A stretch of DNA of 64,000 nt from a virus: IMG/VR virus record IMGVR_UViG_3300005095_000173, positions 12,786-76,785 of that record. The stretch is one strand, 5' to 3'. Of the stretch, positions 27,368 through 40,459 are shown one piece after another; positions within the stretch are counted from its first letter, which is position 1; each line of letters starts with the position of its first letter. Under the pieces are notes generated by a model, which was not told the origin of the DNA, made no database searches, and saw only the letters and a list, made by a program, of their open reading frames with translations. The translations under genes were made by a program, and so were the position numbers.

Positions 27368-27687
27368 TCTCCAGTTAAAATTGCTGGAAGGGTAAAGATA
27401 AGATTAATTGGTTCGCTGTCTTTAAGAGTGTAGACACTAGCGTTTACCAGCACAGAACATAAAGAACTTCGCTTTACAGTAAATCCAGGGTAAATATTGA
27501 CATTTCCCGTAAGCTCATAAATAAAGTCATATATGCTCGCTGGTAACTGAACATCAGCAATAATCTTATCATAAATAAAGACGCTATGATCTCTACCAAG
27601 ATTTAGGTGGATTTTTGATAAGATTGATGCTGAAATACCACGTTTAATATTTTCTGCGTCATTGTACAACTTGGTATACAGGTTCAC
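27358..27687 (-). CDS. hypothetical protein
   Basis: AGGAGG RBS, GTG start. Confidence 0.6.
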   Translation of the reverse strand: MNLYTKLYNDAENIKRGISASILSKIHLNLGRDHSVFIYDKIIADVQLPASIYDFIYELTGNVNIYPGFTVKRSSLCSVLVNASVYTLKDSEPINLIFTLPAILTGECK

Positions 27688-27728
27688 TTATACCCTCCTT
27701 TCAGGAATATTTGTTATTAGTCTACAAG

Positions 27729-27801
27729 AGCCCTGGGTGGGATTTGAACCCACACACTGATGCTTAGAGGGCACCTGCTCTGTCCGTTGAGCTACCAGGG
27801 C
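27729..27801 (-). tRNA. tRNA-Arg(UCU), atypical C33, no encoded CCA
   Basis: acceptor GCCCTGG/CCAGGGC, D-loop with A20, anticodon arm GGTGC-CCTCTAA-GCATC, T-arm GTGGG-TTCAAAT-CCCAC. Confidence 0.85.
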
Positions 27802-27807
27802 ATGGAA

Positions 27808-27868
27808 CAGGGGCACTTTTACTAAAATTTTCAAGAATTTAGTATAAATGTATTGCGGAAGTGCCCCT
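27808..27868 (-). ncRNA. UUCMGCAA structured RNA element, copy E
   Basis: AGGGGCAC/GTGCCCCT closing stem, TTCCGCAA, inner hairpin with loop CTTGAAA. Confidence 0.7.
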
Positions 27869-27906
27869 TATAGCCGCTCTTTCTCTTCTACTCAAGGAGG
27901 TGAAAG

Positions 27907-29385
27907 CTAAAAGTCGTAACGTGGATTACCAATAACCTTCAACATCAACATAATAGGATTGAATAAACTCTCATCTAATTCCATTACTTGTTTCATAATC
28001 TCAGTAGAGTACCCAGAAATAAGCACTGCACCACTTTCATGCTCCCTTACTGGAAGATTTCCAGTGCTCCGAGACATAACATTCCAGTAAATAATTTTTG
28101 GCATTTCGTACCCAGCCGCCAAGAATTTTTGTTTCATTACTTCATGATTAGTTTTATCCCATTTGAAGGTAACTCGGTTACTGAAATAAGAATACCCAAA
28201 TGTTGCCACATCAAACTCCATATCGGAGATAATTAGCAGATACTTTGGCATTTCTTCTTGTTTAAGATTATGTTCTTTAGCATAAGATAGAATTAAGTCG
28301 AATGCCGCCTGCAAGTTGGTGTTTGCTACTTCTGCGTTCTCCAATAATGTTTTCACCTTCTGGTAAACATTTCCAGGAATGTGCAGTAACCGTGGGTTCT
28401 CGCTGAAAGTAAGAACAATATCATTCCAAGGTGCAGGTTGCTTATCCGCAATATACACACCAAGAGAAACTGCAACGTCAAGAGCCGAAAGATTGCCACT
28501 AATCTTTGACTTCATGCTTCCAGATAAATCAACCATTGGTAGAATAAACCCATCTGTTTTCTCTAATGTGTTAGGTAATTGTTCCCACTGCGTCAATAAT
28601 ACATTTAGTTCATCTGTAGTTAGTCGTGAGTCCATCATCTGAGAAGTAATGTGGTAAGGAAATGCTACCGATAAGTTCATTTTCTCTTCGCCACGTTTTA
28701 CTTTTTCAATGTATTCACGATAACGATATTCATCATGGCGGAGAAAAGCATTTCGGTAACGAATCCCAGCAATAGATGGGACTTGAGAATAATTGATTTT
28801 ATCCCATTCATTAGCAGACATCTGTTGTTCAACAGTCTTAGACAAACTCGAGATTAGCTTACGGTATTCTCGCATTGTTAATCCAAGATTGCGTGCGATT
28901 ACTTTGGCCAACCCAGGCCACTTCTTTGACTTCTCCCGTGGAAGCCATTTTGCTAAAAGTCCATCTTGTAGCTCAAGACCACGTTGTACTTTCCAAAACC
29001 ACTTGTCAGGAAACAGTACAAACATATCATCCCAACGCCCAATCTCAGGGATCTTATCAATAATGCGATAAAAAACATCTTCAGTAATAGCATTATTAAT
29101 CTCAAGCCACTTTAGAAACTCTCGGAATACTCGACGCTCACCAGCACCGCCGCGGGCATCACGCACCCATAGCATTACACGAATAGTAAGATAGGGATCA
29201 TCTTTCCATGCCCGATCAAACATCTCCCATAATTTATCTACTTCCGCGGAGCGCATTGCTGGAATTTTGAAAAACAGATCTAGAACATGGTTGCCCGTAG
29301 AATTATAGGTTAGGGCGCCGTTCTCGGTTCGTCCAAATCCATTACGAATACGGTCTGTACTTTCGCTTTTGATTTCATTCCACAT
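27907..29385 (-). CDS. DUF2828 / TROVE(Ro60)-like protein with C-terminal vWA domain
   Basis: TENGA..YNSTG..LDLF N-terminus, RDARGGAGER, GRWDD, AKWLPRE, MIDAS DLSGSM, NTN, ISDMEFD, YWNV, SGYS. Confidence 0.85.
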   Translation of the reverse strand: MWNEIKSESTDRIRNGFGRTENGALTYNSTGNHVLDLFFKIPAMRSAEVDKLWEMFDRAWKDDPYLTIRVMLWVRDARGGAGERRVFREFLKWLEINNAITEDVFYRIIDKIPEIGRWDDMFVLFPDKWFWKVQRGLELQDGLLAKWLPREKSKKWPGLAKVIARNLGLTMREYRKLISSLSKTVEQQMSANEWDKINYSQVPSIAGIRYRNAFLRHDEYRYREYIEKVKRGEEKMNLSVAFPYHITSQMMDSRLTTDELNVLLTQWEQLPNTLEKTDGFILPMVDLSGSMKSKISGNLSALDVAVSLGVYIADKQPAPWNDIVLTFSENPRLLHIPGNVYQKVKTLLENAEVANTNLQAAFDLILSYAKEHNLKQEEMPKYLLIISDMEFDVATFGYSYFSNRVTFKWDKTNHEVMKQKFLAAGYEMPKIIYWNVMSRSTGNLPVREHESGAVLISGYSTEIMKQVMELDESLFNPIMLMLKVIGNPRYDF

Positions 29386-29387
29386 AT

Positions 29388-29449
29388 CAGTACCTCCTTT
29401 GCTCTACCACAAGCAATATGTTGGTTATAATAATTGCTGAAAAGGTACT
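29388..29449 (-). ncRNA. UUCMGCAA structured RNA element, copy D (overlaps RBS)
   Basis: AGTACCT/AGGTACT stem, TTCAGCAA, inner TTGCT/AGCAA hairpin. Confidence 0.65.
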
Positions 29450-29469
29450 TACAAAGTACTAAAACTATA

Positions 29470-29526
29470 CAGTGCCGCAAGTCCATTATGCCAGGAAGGG
29501 CGAGATGTTTGCTGAAATGCGGCACT
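29470..29526 (-). ncRNA. UUCMGCAA structured RNA element, copy C
   Basis: AGTGCCGCA/TGCGGCACT stem, TTCAGCAA, inner GCC-CTTCCT-GGC. Confidence 0.68.
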
Positions 29527-29546
29527 AATTATATATCTTCAATCTA

Positions 29547-29612
29547 CTGGAGCACAATTAGCGGGGTTGGTTTACAATACCAATGCTTTATAATATTTGC
29601 GGAAGTGCCCCA
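29547..29612 (-). ncRNA. UUCMGCAA structured RNA element, copy B
   Basis: TGGGGCAC/GTGCTCCA stem, TTCCGCAA, inner TTGGT-ATTGTAA-ACCAA. Confidence 0.7.
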
Positions 29613-29635
29613 TAGTCTATTTATAATCTATTTAC

Positions 29636-29697
29636 CAGCACCACATGATTTGCACTTCTGCCATAGAAATGTTTTTATTGCTTGCGGAAGTGGTGCT
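29636..29697 (-). ncRNA. UUCMGCAA structured RNA element, copy A
   Basis: AGCACCAC/GTGGTGCT stem, TTCCGCAA, inner CATTTCT-ATGGC-AGAAGTG. Confidence 0.7.
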
Positions 29698-29715
29698 TCT
29701 ATTATTGTAACTTCA

Positions 29716-29744
29716 ATTATAACACGCTCTCTCTAATTTGTCAA
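29716..29744 (-). promoter_or_regulatory. sigma70 promoter for the RNA array and DUF2828 gene
   Basis: TTGACA-17 bp-TATAAT. Confidence 0.85.
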
Positions 29745-29762
29745 GGATTTTTATAAAACTTG

Positions 29763-29835
29763 CTCCGAGGGCAGGACTTGAACCTGCAACCCAGCGGTTA
29801 ACAGCCGCCTGCACTGCCTGTTGTGCTACCTCAGA
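29763..29835 (-). tRNA. tRNA-Asn(GUU)
   Basis: TCTGAGG/CCTCGGA acceptor, G73, GGCGG-CTGTTAA-CCGCT, GCAGG-TTCAAGT-CCTGC. Confidence 0.92.
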
Positions 29836-29881
29836 GTGAAAGGTTCGTCGAGAGGGATTTGCACCACCAACTACATTTGCA

Positions 29882-29910
29882 ATTATACCACAACCTATCC
29901 GCTTTGTCAA
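29882..29910 (-). promoter_or_regulatory. sigma70 promoter upstream of tRNA-Asn
   Basis: TTGACA-17 bp-TATAAT with TGTGG. Confidence 0.85.
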
Positions 29911-29919
29911 GGGTTTTAG

Positions 29920-29994
29920 CTCCAGGGGTGGGACTTGAACCCACATCTTTCCGCTTACAAGGCGGGGACACTGTTCCAATTGTGCTACCCTGGA
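29920..29994 (-). tRNA. tRNA-Thr(UGU) with Asn-like acceptor end
   Basis: TCCAGGG/CCCTGGA acceptor, G73, CCGC-CTTGTAA-GCGG, GTGGG-TTCAAGT-CCCAC. Confidence 0.88.
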
Positions 29995-30005
29995 TTGTTG
30001 CAAAC

Positions 30006-30034
30006 ATTATACTACACTTCGTCCAGATTGTCAA
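30006..30034 (-). promoter_or_regulatory. sigma70 promoter upstream of tRNA-Thr
   Basis: TTGACA-17 bp-TATAAT inside the 3' end of a small ORF. Confidence 0.85.
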
Positions 30035-30185
30035 GGATTTCATCAATCTTTCTCATAATCTCTCCCAAGTACAACGCATCGCCCAGCCCCATAGATTGAC
30101 CGTCTTTTCTTTTAATAGAATACTCACCATCAGGAGACAATGCTTCACGTAATTTTTTGATTTCATTTACCAGCTCATTACACAT
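30012..30185 (-). CDS. 57-aa hypothetical protein (not in ORF track)
   Basis: GAGGAGG RBS; MCNELVNEIKKLRE...ILDNLDEV. Confidence 0.6.
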   Translation of the reverse strand: MCNELVNEIKKLREALSPDGEYSIKRKDGQSMGLGDALYLGEIMRKIDEILDNLDEV

Positions 30186-30198
30186 TTACTACCTCCTC

Positions 30199-30237
30199 AA
30201 ACAAAATATGGCGCAAGTTTCTCACCTGCGCCATATT
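30199..30237 (-). terminator. terminator after the endolysin
   Basis: AATATGGCGCA/TGCGCCATATT stem followed by TTGTTT. Confidence 0.65.
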
Positions 30238-30263
30238 CTACCACACTATCCTAAAATTGTCAA
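30235..30263 (-). promoter_or_regulatory. sigma70 promoter overlapping the endolysin stop and terminator
   Basis: TTGACA-17 bp-TAGAAT with TGTGG. Confidence 0.75.
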
Positions 30264-31048
30264 GCATTTGGGCAACACTTAGCCACAATTTCTTCAAGTC
30301 TTCGTAGTCTTTCCTCTATTGTAAGGCTTGGTTCCTGTGGTGGTTCTTCACCCTGCGTACCATGTTCAAACGCCCAGTTATTATAAACTATGTTTACATC
30401 TACATCTCTATAATTTGCAAGAATGGCGTTTGTATGACCAAATTGCCACATGATAACTTCTTTCCAATTACCTTCTGGAACAGACCAGTAATTTGTACCA
30501 CCCTCAATCAGTTCAAGATAGTATTCAAATTTGGCTTTATCTAATATCTCATTTGTGAAGTAAACAGCAACCCATAGGTATTTATCTGTTAGGTAATTAT
30601 ATTCTTTTCTGTATCTAAGTATTTCATAACTTCCAAAATATGCTTCCCACTTTGTCTTAGAAGTGTAGATATATGTTGGCTGTTTTAGTTCGTCATCTAA
30701 CTTTGTAGCCATTTCATACAAACGTTTAATCGCCGTACCTCTACCAACAATTGCTACACCTTTATTATCTTCTACATCTAAACAAACAGTTGGCTGATAA
30801 CCTAAAGTCTTTGTTGCTTTTTCAACAGCGTCCATTACAAGACTAATTTGAGCATCTACATTATAATTTGCTCTAGTATAGTGATATAAAGAAATAGGAT
30901 ACTCTTTGTATGTAACTAAATTTTCTTCAAATAGTGGGTCAACATAAACGCCATCTGAAGTTCTAATTACAACTCCAGCGATTTCATCCTTTCTATTTAC
31001 TATAGGCTGAGCACCTTGCCATTTAGAAACATCTAATGCTAGTTTCAT
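30260..31048 (-). CDS. endolysin, GH25 muramidase
   Basis: LDVSKWQG, YHY, LDVE, YIYTS, LWVA.Y, WQF, DVDVN. Confidence 0.88.
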   Translation of the reverse strand: MKLALDVSKWQGAQPIVNRKDEIAGVVIRTSDGVYVDPLFEENLVTYKEYPISLYHYTRANYNVDAQISLVMDAVEKATKTLGYQPTVCLDVEDNKGVAIVGRGTAIKRLYEMATKLDDELKQPTYIYTSKTKWEAYFGSYEILRYRKEYNYLTDKYLWVAVYFTNEILDKAKFEYYLELIEGGTNYWSVPEGNWKEVIMWQFGHTNAILANYRDVDVNIVYNNWAFEHGTQGEEPPQEPSLTIEERLRRLEEIVAKCCPNA

Positions 31049-40103: not shown

Positions 40104-40459
40104 TGCTCTATAGCCTCAAATGAAAATTTGAATACTGGGTCAGTACAATCATGTGTTGGATCAAAAGTTTGGGCAATTGTATTCTCCCAATCGTATTCAA
40201 AATTCTGAACTAACACATTTCTAACAAATCCTTGATTTCCAGATAGCAAAACTGGAAGCCCAGAATTTACTACATTAACTAATGCTTCTTCAGTGTCCAA
40301 GCCAACAAATCTTCCAGTTATGGAATATTTTCTAGACTTGGCTCCAAACACATGCACAGTAGATTCTGTGTTACCAATTGGATTTAGTTCAGCAGATATT
40401 AGTTCTTTCTTTGGTTTTACACCGTCAACAAAAATTCTTATTCCATTTAGTGTCCACAT
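40100..40459 (-). CDS. distal tail-like protein
   Basis: position immediately after the tape measure. Confidence 0.55.
   Translation of the reverse strand: MWTLNGIRIFVDGVKPKKELISAELNPIGNTESTVHVFGAKSRKYSITGRFVGLDTEEALVNVVNSGLPVLLSGNQGFVRNVLVQNFEYDWENTIAQTFDPTHDCTDPVFKFSFEAIEQ

What the first reader, a model, noticed from the sequence alone, without database searches (positions are those of the whole stretch)
29383..29449. Last array copy sequesters the RBS of the DUF2828 gene (autoregulation)
Seen: the 3' strand of copy D reads AGG-AGGTACT-G-AT-ATG. The AGGAGG Shine-Dalgarno (29393-29398) is half buried in the closing stem, 7 nt before the start codon. Inference: the protein binds copy D and represses its own translation, so protein level is titrated to the number of free RNA elements. 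This independently supports the elements being ligands of this protein.
Basis: partly seen in the sequence, partly recalled or inferred. Interest (0 to 1): 0.7.

Follow-up and report, generated by a model that had tools for sequence, protein, structure and literature searches.

The report
Partner-RNA handle hides Ro60-like gene's RBS
In this phage the ribosome-binding site of a Ro60-shaped RNA-binding protein gene lies inside the closing stem of one of the small RNAs that this protein family probably binds, so the protein may well limit its own synthesis, although no binding or repression has been shown.

Summary
Copy D (29449-29389, minus strand) is a 61-nt hairpin. Its 3' arm contains the AGGAGG Shine-Dalgarno (SD, 29398-29393), 7 nt before the ATG (29385) of a DUF2828/vWA gene whose predicted fold matches Ro60.

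D belongs to a widespread RNA family: closing stem, then UUCAGCAA/UACAGCAA, then a 3' G. A covariance model built only from other phages' loci ranks D first in the 64-kb window (30.9 bits). It finds 124 copies in 75 homologous loci, all on the gene's strand.

Literal SD-in-stem overlap is not conserved: none of the 124 copies carries a strong SD in its 3' part. Close juxtaposition is conserved: in 43 of 59 loci with hits, the last handle ends 11-31 nt before the start codon. The window is the extreme case: SD unpaired probability is 0.02, against a median of 0.57 in homologs.

Autogenous translational control through a ligand-like leader is the best reading (about 0.5). Protein-independent attenuation, processing coupling and activation are not excluded.

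This scan has noted the RNA family, and handles in DUF2828 leaders, on other DNA before. I found no Rfam family for these RNAs and no paper on Ro60 autoregulation; two papers only speculate that Y RNAs lie near homologous genes.

The parts
29716..29744 (-). Consensus sigma-70-type promoter (TTGACA, 17 nt, TATAAT) that drives the array A-D, the DUF2828 gene, copy E and tRNA-Arg
   Evidence: 12 of 12 match with TG extension, and no terminator-like site on the minus strand between this promoter and the gene's start codon
29636..29697 (-). Copy A: stem AGCACCAC/GUGGUGCU followed by UUCCGCAA
   Evidence: Sequence; R1 18.1 bits
29549..29611 (-). Copy B: stem GGGGCAC/GUGCUCC followed by UUCCGCAA
   Evidence: Sequence; R1 15.0 bits with filters off
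29471..29526 (-). Copy C: stem AGUGCCGCA/UGCGGCACU followed by UUUCAGCAA
   Evidence: Sequence; R1 10.7 bits with filters off
29445..29459 (-). Mini-hairpin GUACUU-UGU-AAGUAC that competes for D's 5' arm; a possible kinetic anti-sequestor
   Evidence: MFE of the nascent transcript before the 3' arm exists; -3.8 kcal/mol. Inference only.
29389..29449 (-). Copy D: handle hairpin, with UUCAGCAA at 29441-29434, that forms the 5' UTR of the DUF2828 gene
   Evidence: Best R1 hit in the window at 30.9 bits; -18.9 kcal/mol, z -4.0
29393..29398 (-). Shine-Dalgarno AGGAGG inside D's 3' arm
   Evidence: Sequence; unpaired probability about 0.02
27907..29385 (-). DUF2828 + DUF7788/vWA gene, 492 aa, with a predicted Ro60-like ring fold
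   Evidence: Pfam; phrog_850 'RNA-binding protein'; AF2 model pLDDT 88.4; top 13 PDB matches are all Ro60 structures
27809..27868 (-). Copy E: stem AGGGGCACUU/AAGUGCCCCU followed by CCGCAA, 38 nt after the stop codon and 7 nt before tRNA-Arg
   Evidence: R1 27.9 bits
27728..27801 (-). tRNA-Arg(UCU), last gene of the unit
   Evidence: ARAGORN; Rfam tRNA 63.7 bits

Best explanation
Copy D is a cis-acting copy of the 'handle' shared by the phage's Y-RNA-like small RNAs. The handle is a closing stem, then UUCAGCAA just after the 5' arm, then a 3' G. These RNAs are the likely ligands of the Ro60-shaped DUF2828 protein.

The gene is transcribed from the promoter at 29744-29716 through copies A-D, so D is its 5' UTR. 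D's closing helix contains the SD, so the folded handle blocks 30S binding. A protein molecule that clamps the handle would hold the gene off. Protein not occupied by the free RNAs would then repress its own mRNA, by the logic of ribosomal-protein and phage RegA/coat-protein operators.

The window is the extreme form of a common layout in which the last handle ends just before the SD.

Shown here: the structure, family membership, co-transcription geometry, adjacency in homologs, and the Ro60-like fold. Inferred: that the protein binds the handle, that binding stabilises rather than opens the helix, and that translation responds to it.
For: - D is the best match in the window to a model built only from other phages' loci. 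All five copies outrank the noise.
- In 75 homologous loci, 124 of 124 hits lie on the gene's strand.
- All 7 stem pairs show changes on both sides. The training copies were chosen for having a stem, so the high paired fraction is partly circular.
- The last handle's 3' arm ends 11-31 nt before the DUF2828 start in 43 of 59 loci.
- Of the 44 handles that abut an RBS, 42 abut the DUF2828 RBS.
- The SD unpaired probability is 0.02, and freeing it costs about 10 kcal/mol.
- There is no strong promoter or terminator between the array promoter and the gene.
- The predicted structure matches Xenopus, human, Deinococcus and Thermus-phage Ro60 over the full length.
- Canonical Ro60 recognises a short motif on the 5' strand next to the terminal stem (PMC4201824). 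The Thermus phage phiLo Ro60 binds two Yrl RNAs encoded just upstream of its gene (PMC12135203).
- In a P100-like Listeria phage, abundant ncRNAs lie upstream of the homologous gene (PMC12282133).
Against: - No binding or repression data exist.
- The SD-in-stem feature is unique to this window: 0 of 124 homologous copies have it. Homolog SDs are mostly accessible.
- Adjacency could simply reflect tight packing. Spacers between handles are also short, and 26 handles are followed by the next handle within 35 nt.
- In FelixO1-like phages and Staphylococcus phage S-CoN_Ph9 the handles lie downstream of the gene.
- Xenopus Ro60 is reported to separate the Y RNA helix (PMC12135203). That would free the SD rather than hide it.
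- Comparable predicted SD occlusion occurs in 3 other genes of this phage.
- The closest accessible relative, L082 (47% identity), has a different layout: handle, then U9, then a free SD.
Confidence: 0.5

Rival explanations
1. Protein-independent attenuation. The stable hairpin simply keeps translation of the gene low, or limits it to a short co-transcriptional window, so that few protein molecules are made per burst of RNA. There is no feedback.
For: The hairpin is -18.9 kcal/mol and freeing the SD costs about 10 kcal/mol. A mini-hairpin on the 5' arm could give a brief open window before the 3' arm is made. Other genes of the phage also have predicted occluded SDs.
Against: This does not explain why the occluding hairpin is the best-scoring handle copy in the window, with an intact UUCAGCAA and 3' G. 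It also does not explain why handles abut this gene's RBS across lineages.
Confidence: 0.2
2. Processing coupling. The handles are cut out of the precursor at their conserved ends (U-AG...CU-G). In most phages this leaves a short leader that still carries the SD. Here, release of D would take the SD with it, so each transcript yields either mature D RNA or a translatable mRNA.
For: The flanks are conserved across the family: UUUU before the stem and G(UUG) after it. The copies are packed among tRNAs that must themselves be processed. In the window the conserved 3' G (29388) is only 2 nt from the ATG (alignment).
Against: No processing sites have been mapped and no nuclease is identified. The conserved flanks could instead be protein contacts.
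Confidence: 0.12
3. Activation. The protein grips the 5' strand and motif and pries the helix open, as reported for Xenopus Ro60 on Y RNA. This frees the SD, so the gene is switched on by its own product, possibly by protein delivered in the virion.
For: Ro60 contacts mainly the 5' strand and separates the helix (PMC4201824; PMC12135203). A 10 kcal/mol barrier suggests some opener is needed for any expression. The Listeria phage homolog was detected in purified virions (PMC12282133).
Against: The stem covaries strongly across the family, which argues that the paired form is the functional one. There is no evidence on how DUF2828 proteins bind RNA.
Confidence: 0.08
4. No regulatory meaning. The overlap is a by-product of genome compaction in one lineage and the SD still works well enough.
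For: Literal overlap is not conserved. No close relatives are available to show that it is maintained.
Against: An SD paired with probability about 0.98 in a -19 kcal/mol helix must affect initiation, by established knowledge of SD accessibility. D keeps every family feature while also encoding a perfect AGGAGG at optimal spacing, which looks selected.
Confidence: 0.1

Closest known systems
Ro60 (Rsr/TROVE2) with Y RNAs, including bacterial and mycobacteriophage YrlA/YrlB and Thermus phage phiLo Ro60 with Yrl1/Yrl2 (PMC4201824, PMC12135203)
   Same: A ring-shaped HEAT-repeat plus vWA protein (fold match). Small RNAs are encoded next to the gene on the same strand. Each has a terminal stem with a short conserved motif on the 5' strand. 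They are associated with tRNAs, and long family members carry tRNA-like inserts.
   Different: Pfam assigns the protein to DUF2828/DUF7788, not TROVE. The motif is (U/A)(U/A)C(A/C)GCAA, not GNCGAA/GGUCCGA. No Rfam Y_RNA or YrlA match was found. I found no report of autoregulation through a Y-like leader for Ro60.
Autogenous translational operators that mimic the protein's main RNA ligand: E. coli ribosomal proteins L1, S8, S15 and L20, T4 RegA and gp32, and MS2 coat protein (established knowledge, not tested here)
   Same: A copy of the ligand structure sits on the RBS of the protein's own mRNA, so excess protein would shut off its own synthesis.
   Different: Here binding is only inferred. 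The operator is a full-scoring family member rather than a degenerate mimic, and it lies at the end of a tandem array of the ligand genes in the same transcript.
Dictyostelium Class I RNAs (Rfam RF01414)
   Same: A short terminal stem is followed at once by CUUACAGCAAUUA, and the 3' end is ...CUG. Copy D aligns over the whole model.
   Different: The score is 19.7 bits against a gathering score of 41.5. The host is eukaryotic. No link to DUF2828 was tested here.
SD-sequestering RNA thermometers (fourU, ROSE; established knowledge)
   Same: A U-run pairs with the purines of the SD.
   Different: D is far more stable (-18.9 kcal/mol). It carries a conserved family motif and belongs to an array. 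No temperature logic is evident.

Membership tests
CAGCAA-handle RNAs that accompany DUF2828 genes (unnamed; not in Rfam 15) | A 7-10 bp closing stem joins the 5' and 3' ends, and its sequence differs between copies | tested here: met
   D has AGUACCU/AGGUACU, which extends to 10 bp. The stems of A-E all differ but stay complementary. In the family all 7 pairs show changes on both sides.
CAGCAA-handle RNAs that accompany DUF2828 genes (unnamed; not in Rfam 15) | The motif (U/A)(U/A)C(A/C)GCAA lies 0-2 nt after the 5' arm, and a conserved G follows the 3' arm | tested here: met
   D has UUCAGCAA at 29441-29434 and G at 29388 (alignment)
CAGCAA-handle RNAs that accompany DUF2828 genes (unnamed; not in Rfam 15) | A significant score against a covariance model built from other genomes | tested here: met
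   30.9 bits, E 2.4e-5 over 64 kb, rank 1
CAGCAA-handle RNAs that accompany DUF2828 genes (unnamed; not in Rfam 15) | Lies on the same strand as, and next to, a DUF2828 gene or tRNA cluster | tested here: met
   124 of 124 hits on the gene's strand in homologous loci
Ro60/TROVE-Y RNA ribonucleoprotein | The protein is a HEAT-repeat ring plus a vWA domain | tested here: met
   AF2 model with pLDDT 88.4 and pTM 0.89. The top 13 PDB matches are all Ro60, with TM 0.34-0.60, most 0.5-0.6. This rests on a predicted structure only.
Ro60/TROVE-Y RNA ribonucleoprotein | Sequence membership in the TROVE domain (PF05731) | tested here: not met
   Pfam reports DUF7788, DUF2828 and VWA_2, with no TROVE match at E <= 0.001. 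A sequence search of PDB finds no Ro60.
Ro60/TROVE-Y RNA ribonucleoprotein | The RNA carries the GNCGAA/GGUCCGA Ro-binding motif, or matches Rfam Y_RNA or YrlA | tested here: not met
   The motif is CAGCAA/CCGCAA. No Y RNA family appears even at E <= 10.
Ro60/TROVE-Y RNA ribonucleoprotein | Direct binding of the protein to the RNA | not testable with these tools
   Needs gel shift, co-immunoprecipitation or CLIP
Autogenous translational operator | The operator overlaps or abuts the RBS of the regulator's own gene | tested here: met
   In the window the SD lies inside the 3' arm. In 43 of 59 homologous loci the stem ends 11-31 nt before the start.
Autogenous translational operator | The operator resembles the regulator's main RNA ligand | tested here: inconclusive
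   D is a full family member, but it has not been shown that the family is the protein's ligand
Autogenous translational operator | The protein represses its own translation | not testable with these tools
   Needs a reporter assay
Dictyostelium Class I RNA (RF01414) | A score at or above the Rfam gathering threshold | tested here: not met
   19.7 bits against 41.5

The most novel reading that the evidence does not exclude
The handle in the leader is a two-state switch read by the Ro60-like protein in the activating direction. The nascent 5' arm is first held in the mini-hairpin at 29459-29445. The mature handle then locks the SD away. Only the protein, perhaps brought in with the virion as in the Listeria phage, can pry the helix open, as Xenopus Ro60 does on Y RNA. 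The gene would then be turned on by its own product and turned off when the free Y-like RNAs titrate the protein away.
Probability: 0.08. Interest if true: 0.75.

Novelty: new variant of a known kind. Interest (0 to 1): 0.5.

Why it matters
DUF2828 proteins occur in more than 700 sequenced phages. One homolog counters the Ppl defence system (PMC11482910). Their RNA partners and their control are still undescribed.

A handle copy that physically contains the SD gives the simplest genetic assay for the whole system. One reporter construct would test three things: whether the protein recognises the CAGCAA handle, which nucleotides matter, and whether Ro60-type proteins can set their own level against their RNA pool. 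I found no report of such autogenous control for the Ro60 family.

If the assay is negative, the window is just an unusually tight leader and the finding is ordinary.

Tried and rejected
The contigs of the closest homologs (P0002, 52%; P0004 and P0005, 47-48%) could not be fetched, so conservation of the SD-in-stem layout in the immediate clade is untested.
- IMG/VR scans with P0002 and P0005 gave no close relative.
- Megablast of the locus against GenBank phages gave no match.
- The look-up of sequencing runs listed no run, and no RNA holder was listed.
- A sequence search of PDB gave only chance hits. NCBIfam gave nothing.
- Rfam gave only tRNAs, plus a sub-threshold Class I RNA match.
- The exact 8-mer UUC[A/C]GCAA was not found near distant homologs. 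The motif had to be relaxed.
- My first start-codon calls wrongly chose TTG inside the handle flank in six loci. They were corrected.
- The R1 hit at 40376-40448(+), at 18.3 bits with two broken pairs, was judged to be chance.
- A whole-leader fold is not more stable than shuffles (z -0.75). The signal lies in the individual hairpins.
- Complex prediction was not used because it takes no RNA chain.

Full report
**What is there.** The window is part of a complete 76.8-kb virus record with terminal repeats. On the minus strand a 492-aa gene (29385-27907) carries Pfam DUF2828 and DUF7788/vWA and phrog_850 'RNA-binding protein'. An AlphaFold model built on 57 homologs (pLDDT 88.4, pTM 0.89) has Ro60 structures as its 13 best PDB matches. 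These are from Xenopus, human, Deinococcus Rsr and Thermus phage phiLo, over about 510-560 aligned columns (E about 1e-7 to 6e-6; TM 0.34-0.60, most 0.5-0.6). By sequence it is not a TROVE-domain protein.

Upstream lie four consensus promoters. They drive a small ORF, tRNA-Thr, tRNA-Asn and, from 29744-29716, the hairpin array and the gene. No strong promoter or terminator lies between this last promoter and the gene.

**The observation.** Four hairpins precede the gene: A 29697-29636, B 29611-29549, C 29526-29471 and D 29449-29389. A fifth, E (27868-27809), follows it, 7 nt before tRNA-Arg. Each has a closing stem of a different sequence, followed at once by UUCCGCAA or UUCAGCAA and ending ...CU-G.

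In D the 3' arm reads AAAGGAGGUACU. D folds at -18.9 kcal/mol (z -4.0). The SD is unpaired with probability about 0.02 in every context tried. Freeing the 3' arm costs about 10 kcal/mol. There is no alternative in-frame start, and the N-terminus aligns with the closest homologs.

**D is a real member of a widespread RNA family.** The same design flanks homologous genes in these phages:
- Listeria phage P100plus (three copies upstream);
- Bacillus phage KoopaTroopa (copies upstream and among the tRNAs);
- Staphylococcus phage S-CoN_Ph9 (three copies downstream, annotated as tiny ORFs);
- FelixO1-like phage radambza (copies among the tRNAs downstream);
- IMG/VR and metagenome contigs.

I aligned 58 short copies, none from the window (A3). 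All 7 stem pairs show changes on both sides and 97% of cells pair. The copies were picked for having a stem, so the paired fraction is partly circular.

The covariance model R1 ranks D first in the whole 64-kb window (30.9 bits, E 2.4e-5). E comes next (27.9 bits) and then A (18.1 bits), essentially tied with the discounted hit at 40376-40448 (18.3 bits). With filters off, B (15.0) and C (10.7) complete the top five in 27600-30300, and the best noise hit scores 6.6. In 75 homologous loci (384 kb, both strands) R1 finds 124 hits at E <= 0.01, and all 124 are on the gene's strand.

Rfam 15 has no family for these RNAs. Only the Dictyostelium Class I RNA model aligns to D, below threshold at 19.7 against 41.5 bits. 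Its consensus has the same plan: stem, CUUACAGCAAUUA, stem, UG.

**Is the element/RBS overlap conserved?** Literal overlap is not. None of the 124 homologous copies has GGAGG, AGGAG, AAGGAG or GAGGT in its last 16 nt. In 40 distinct loci where a handle precedes the gene, the SD is mostly accessible: median unpaired probability is 0.57, and one locus is below 0.1. Only L001/L003 (39% identity) have a cargo-less mini-handle whose arm covers the first bases of GAGGAGGG.

Adjacency is conserved. In 43 of the 59 loci with R1 hits, the last handle's 3' arm ends 11-31 nt before the start codon. The SD begins 0-19 nt after the stem, typically straight after the conserved GUUG flank. Several apparent exceptions have a long handle with a tRNA-like insert ending at the same place, which the short-form model misses (rows for L110, L113, L116, L141 and L144).

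Of the 44 handles that abut an RBS, 42 abut the DUF2828 RBS. The loci were centred on that gene, so this count is biased. There is no room for a promoter between handle and gene, so the gene's leader is the handle. The window is the extreme of this series: everything is shifted about 13 nt, so the start codon sits where other loci place the spacer before the SD.

**Mechanism.** The best reading is autogenous translational control (confidence about 0.5). The Ro60-like protein binds handles. A handle on its own RBS lets protein that is not engaged with free RNAs shut off its own mRNA. In this window the helix itself hides the SD, so binding would clamp an already closed gate.

Support by analogy comes from three sources:
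- Canonical Ro60 recognises a short motif on the 5' strand beside the terminal stem (PMC4201824).
- phiLo Ro60 binds two Yrl RNAs encoded just upstream of its gene (PMC12135203).
- A P100-like Listeria phage makes abundant unexplained ncRNAs upstream of its homolog, which HHpred matches to Rsr (PMC12282133).

The Bas63 homolog gp130 counters the Ppl defence system and sits by tRNAs (PMC11482910). None of these papers describes the CAGCAA handle or autoregulation, and a search for Ro60 autoregulation found nothing relevant.

**Rivals.**
- Protein-independent attenuation (0.2). A mini-hairpin, GUACUU-UGU-AAGUAC (29459-29445), occupies D's 5' arm in the nascent RNA and could give a short open window.
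- Processing coupling (0.12). If handles are excised at their conserved ends, releasing D removes the SD from the mRNA.
- Activation (0.08). Xenopus Ro60 is reported to separate the Y RNA helix, which here would expose the SD.
- No function (0.1).

**Limits.**
- The SD-in-stem form is seen only here.
- The closest accessible relative, L082 (47% identity), has handle, U9, then a free SD instead.
- This gene's SD occlusion ranks 4th of 49 in the phage, so it is not unique.
- In some lineages the handles lie downstream of the gene.

**Relation to earlier notes of this scan.** The scan has already recorded the CAGCAA-handle family next to DUF2828 genes in many genomes. It has also recorded handles in DUF2828 leaders in several genomes, with follow-up verdicts of 'partly supported'. 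My analysis was done on loci fetched here and reaches the same position. It adds that literal SD burial is a lineage-specific extreme, and that D is the top-scoring handle in its genome.

**Verdict.** This is a new variant of a known regulatory logic, applied to an undescribed Ro60-like RNP. It is of moderate interest, mainly because it gives a one-construct test of the protein-RNA pairing.

Noticed in passing
A3 alignment; e.g. L095:930-998, L157:665-731, L108:2237-2302, L103:1239-1300: The inner hairpins of many short family members have 5-bp stems and 7-nt loops such as CUUGUAA, CUUGAAA and CUGCAAA. These look like anticodon arms.
   Followed up: partly
L095:800-930, L104:560-690, L084:2342-2464: Long family members carry a T arm, acceptor halves and a D arm in permuted order, like YrlA-type tRNA mimics.
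   Followed up: partly
L082:2358-2445: In the closest accessible relative (47% identity) the last handle is followed by G plus U9 and then a free SD 17 nt later. The layout is terminator-like and could attenuate transcription rather than translation.
   Followed up: partly
window 29459-29453 with 29362-29356: GUACUUU upstream of D can pair with AAAGUAC inside the coding region, enclosing D and the start codon in the MFE fold. The direct repeat AGUACUUU / AGUACCUUUU looks like a duplicated 5' arm.
   Followed up: partly
window 29716-30263, minus strand: Four consensus or near-consensus TTGACA-17-TATAAT promoters lie within 550 nt. Each drives a single short product: a 57-aa ORF, tRNA-Thr, tRNA-Asn, and the array.
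   Followed up: no
L078:395-1000 (Listeria phage P100plus): An unannotated stretch of about 550 nt, driven by a promoter, lies between tRNA-Pro and the next CDS. It has no Rfam family at gathering score. It may correspond to the most highly transcribed region reported for phage CKA15.
   Followed up: no
L004:2798-2937: A tRNA match spans 140 nt (53.8 bits) and ends 34 nt before the DUF2828 start (2971). ARAGORN missed it. It has a long insertion in the anticodon region that contains CAGCAG.
   Followed up: no
window 40376-40448 (+): A weak R1 hit (18.3 bits, E 0.039) contains UUCAGCAG and has two non-standard pairs. It is probably chance.
   Followed up: partly
literature; L078 gene 1986-3506: The Listeria phage homolog CKA15_055 was detected in purified virions at 57% coverage. 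Two GenBank records call homologs 'structural protein'. The protein may be packaged.
   Followed up: no
L006-L076 (IMG/VR GVMAG contigs): Many DUF2828 homologs (27-33% identity) sit on giant-virus-type contigs without SD sequences. There the handle scan shows no excess over shuffles.
   Followed up: partly
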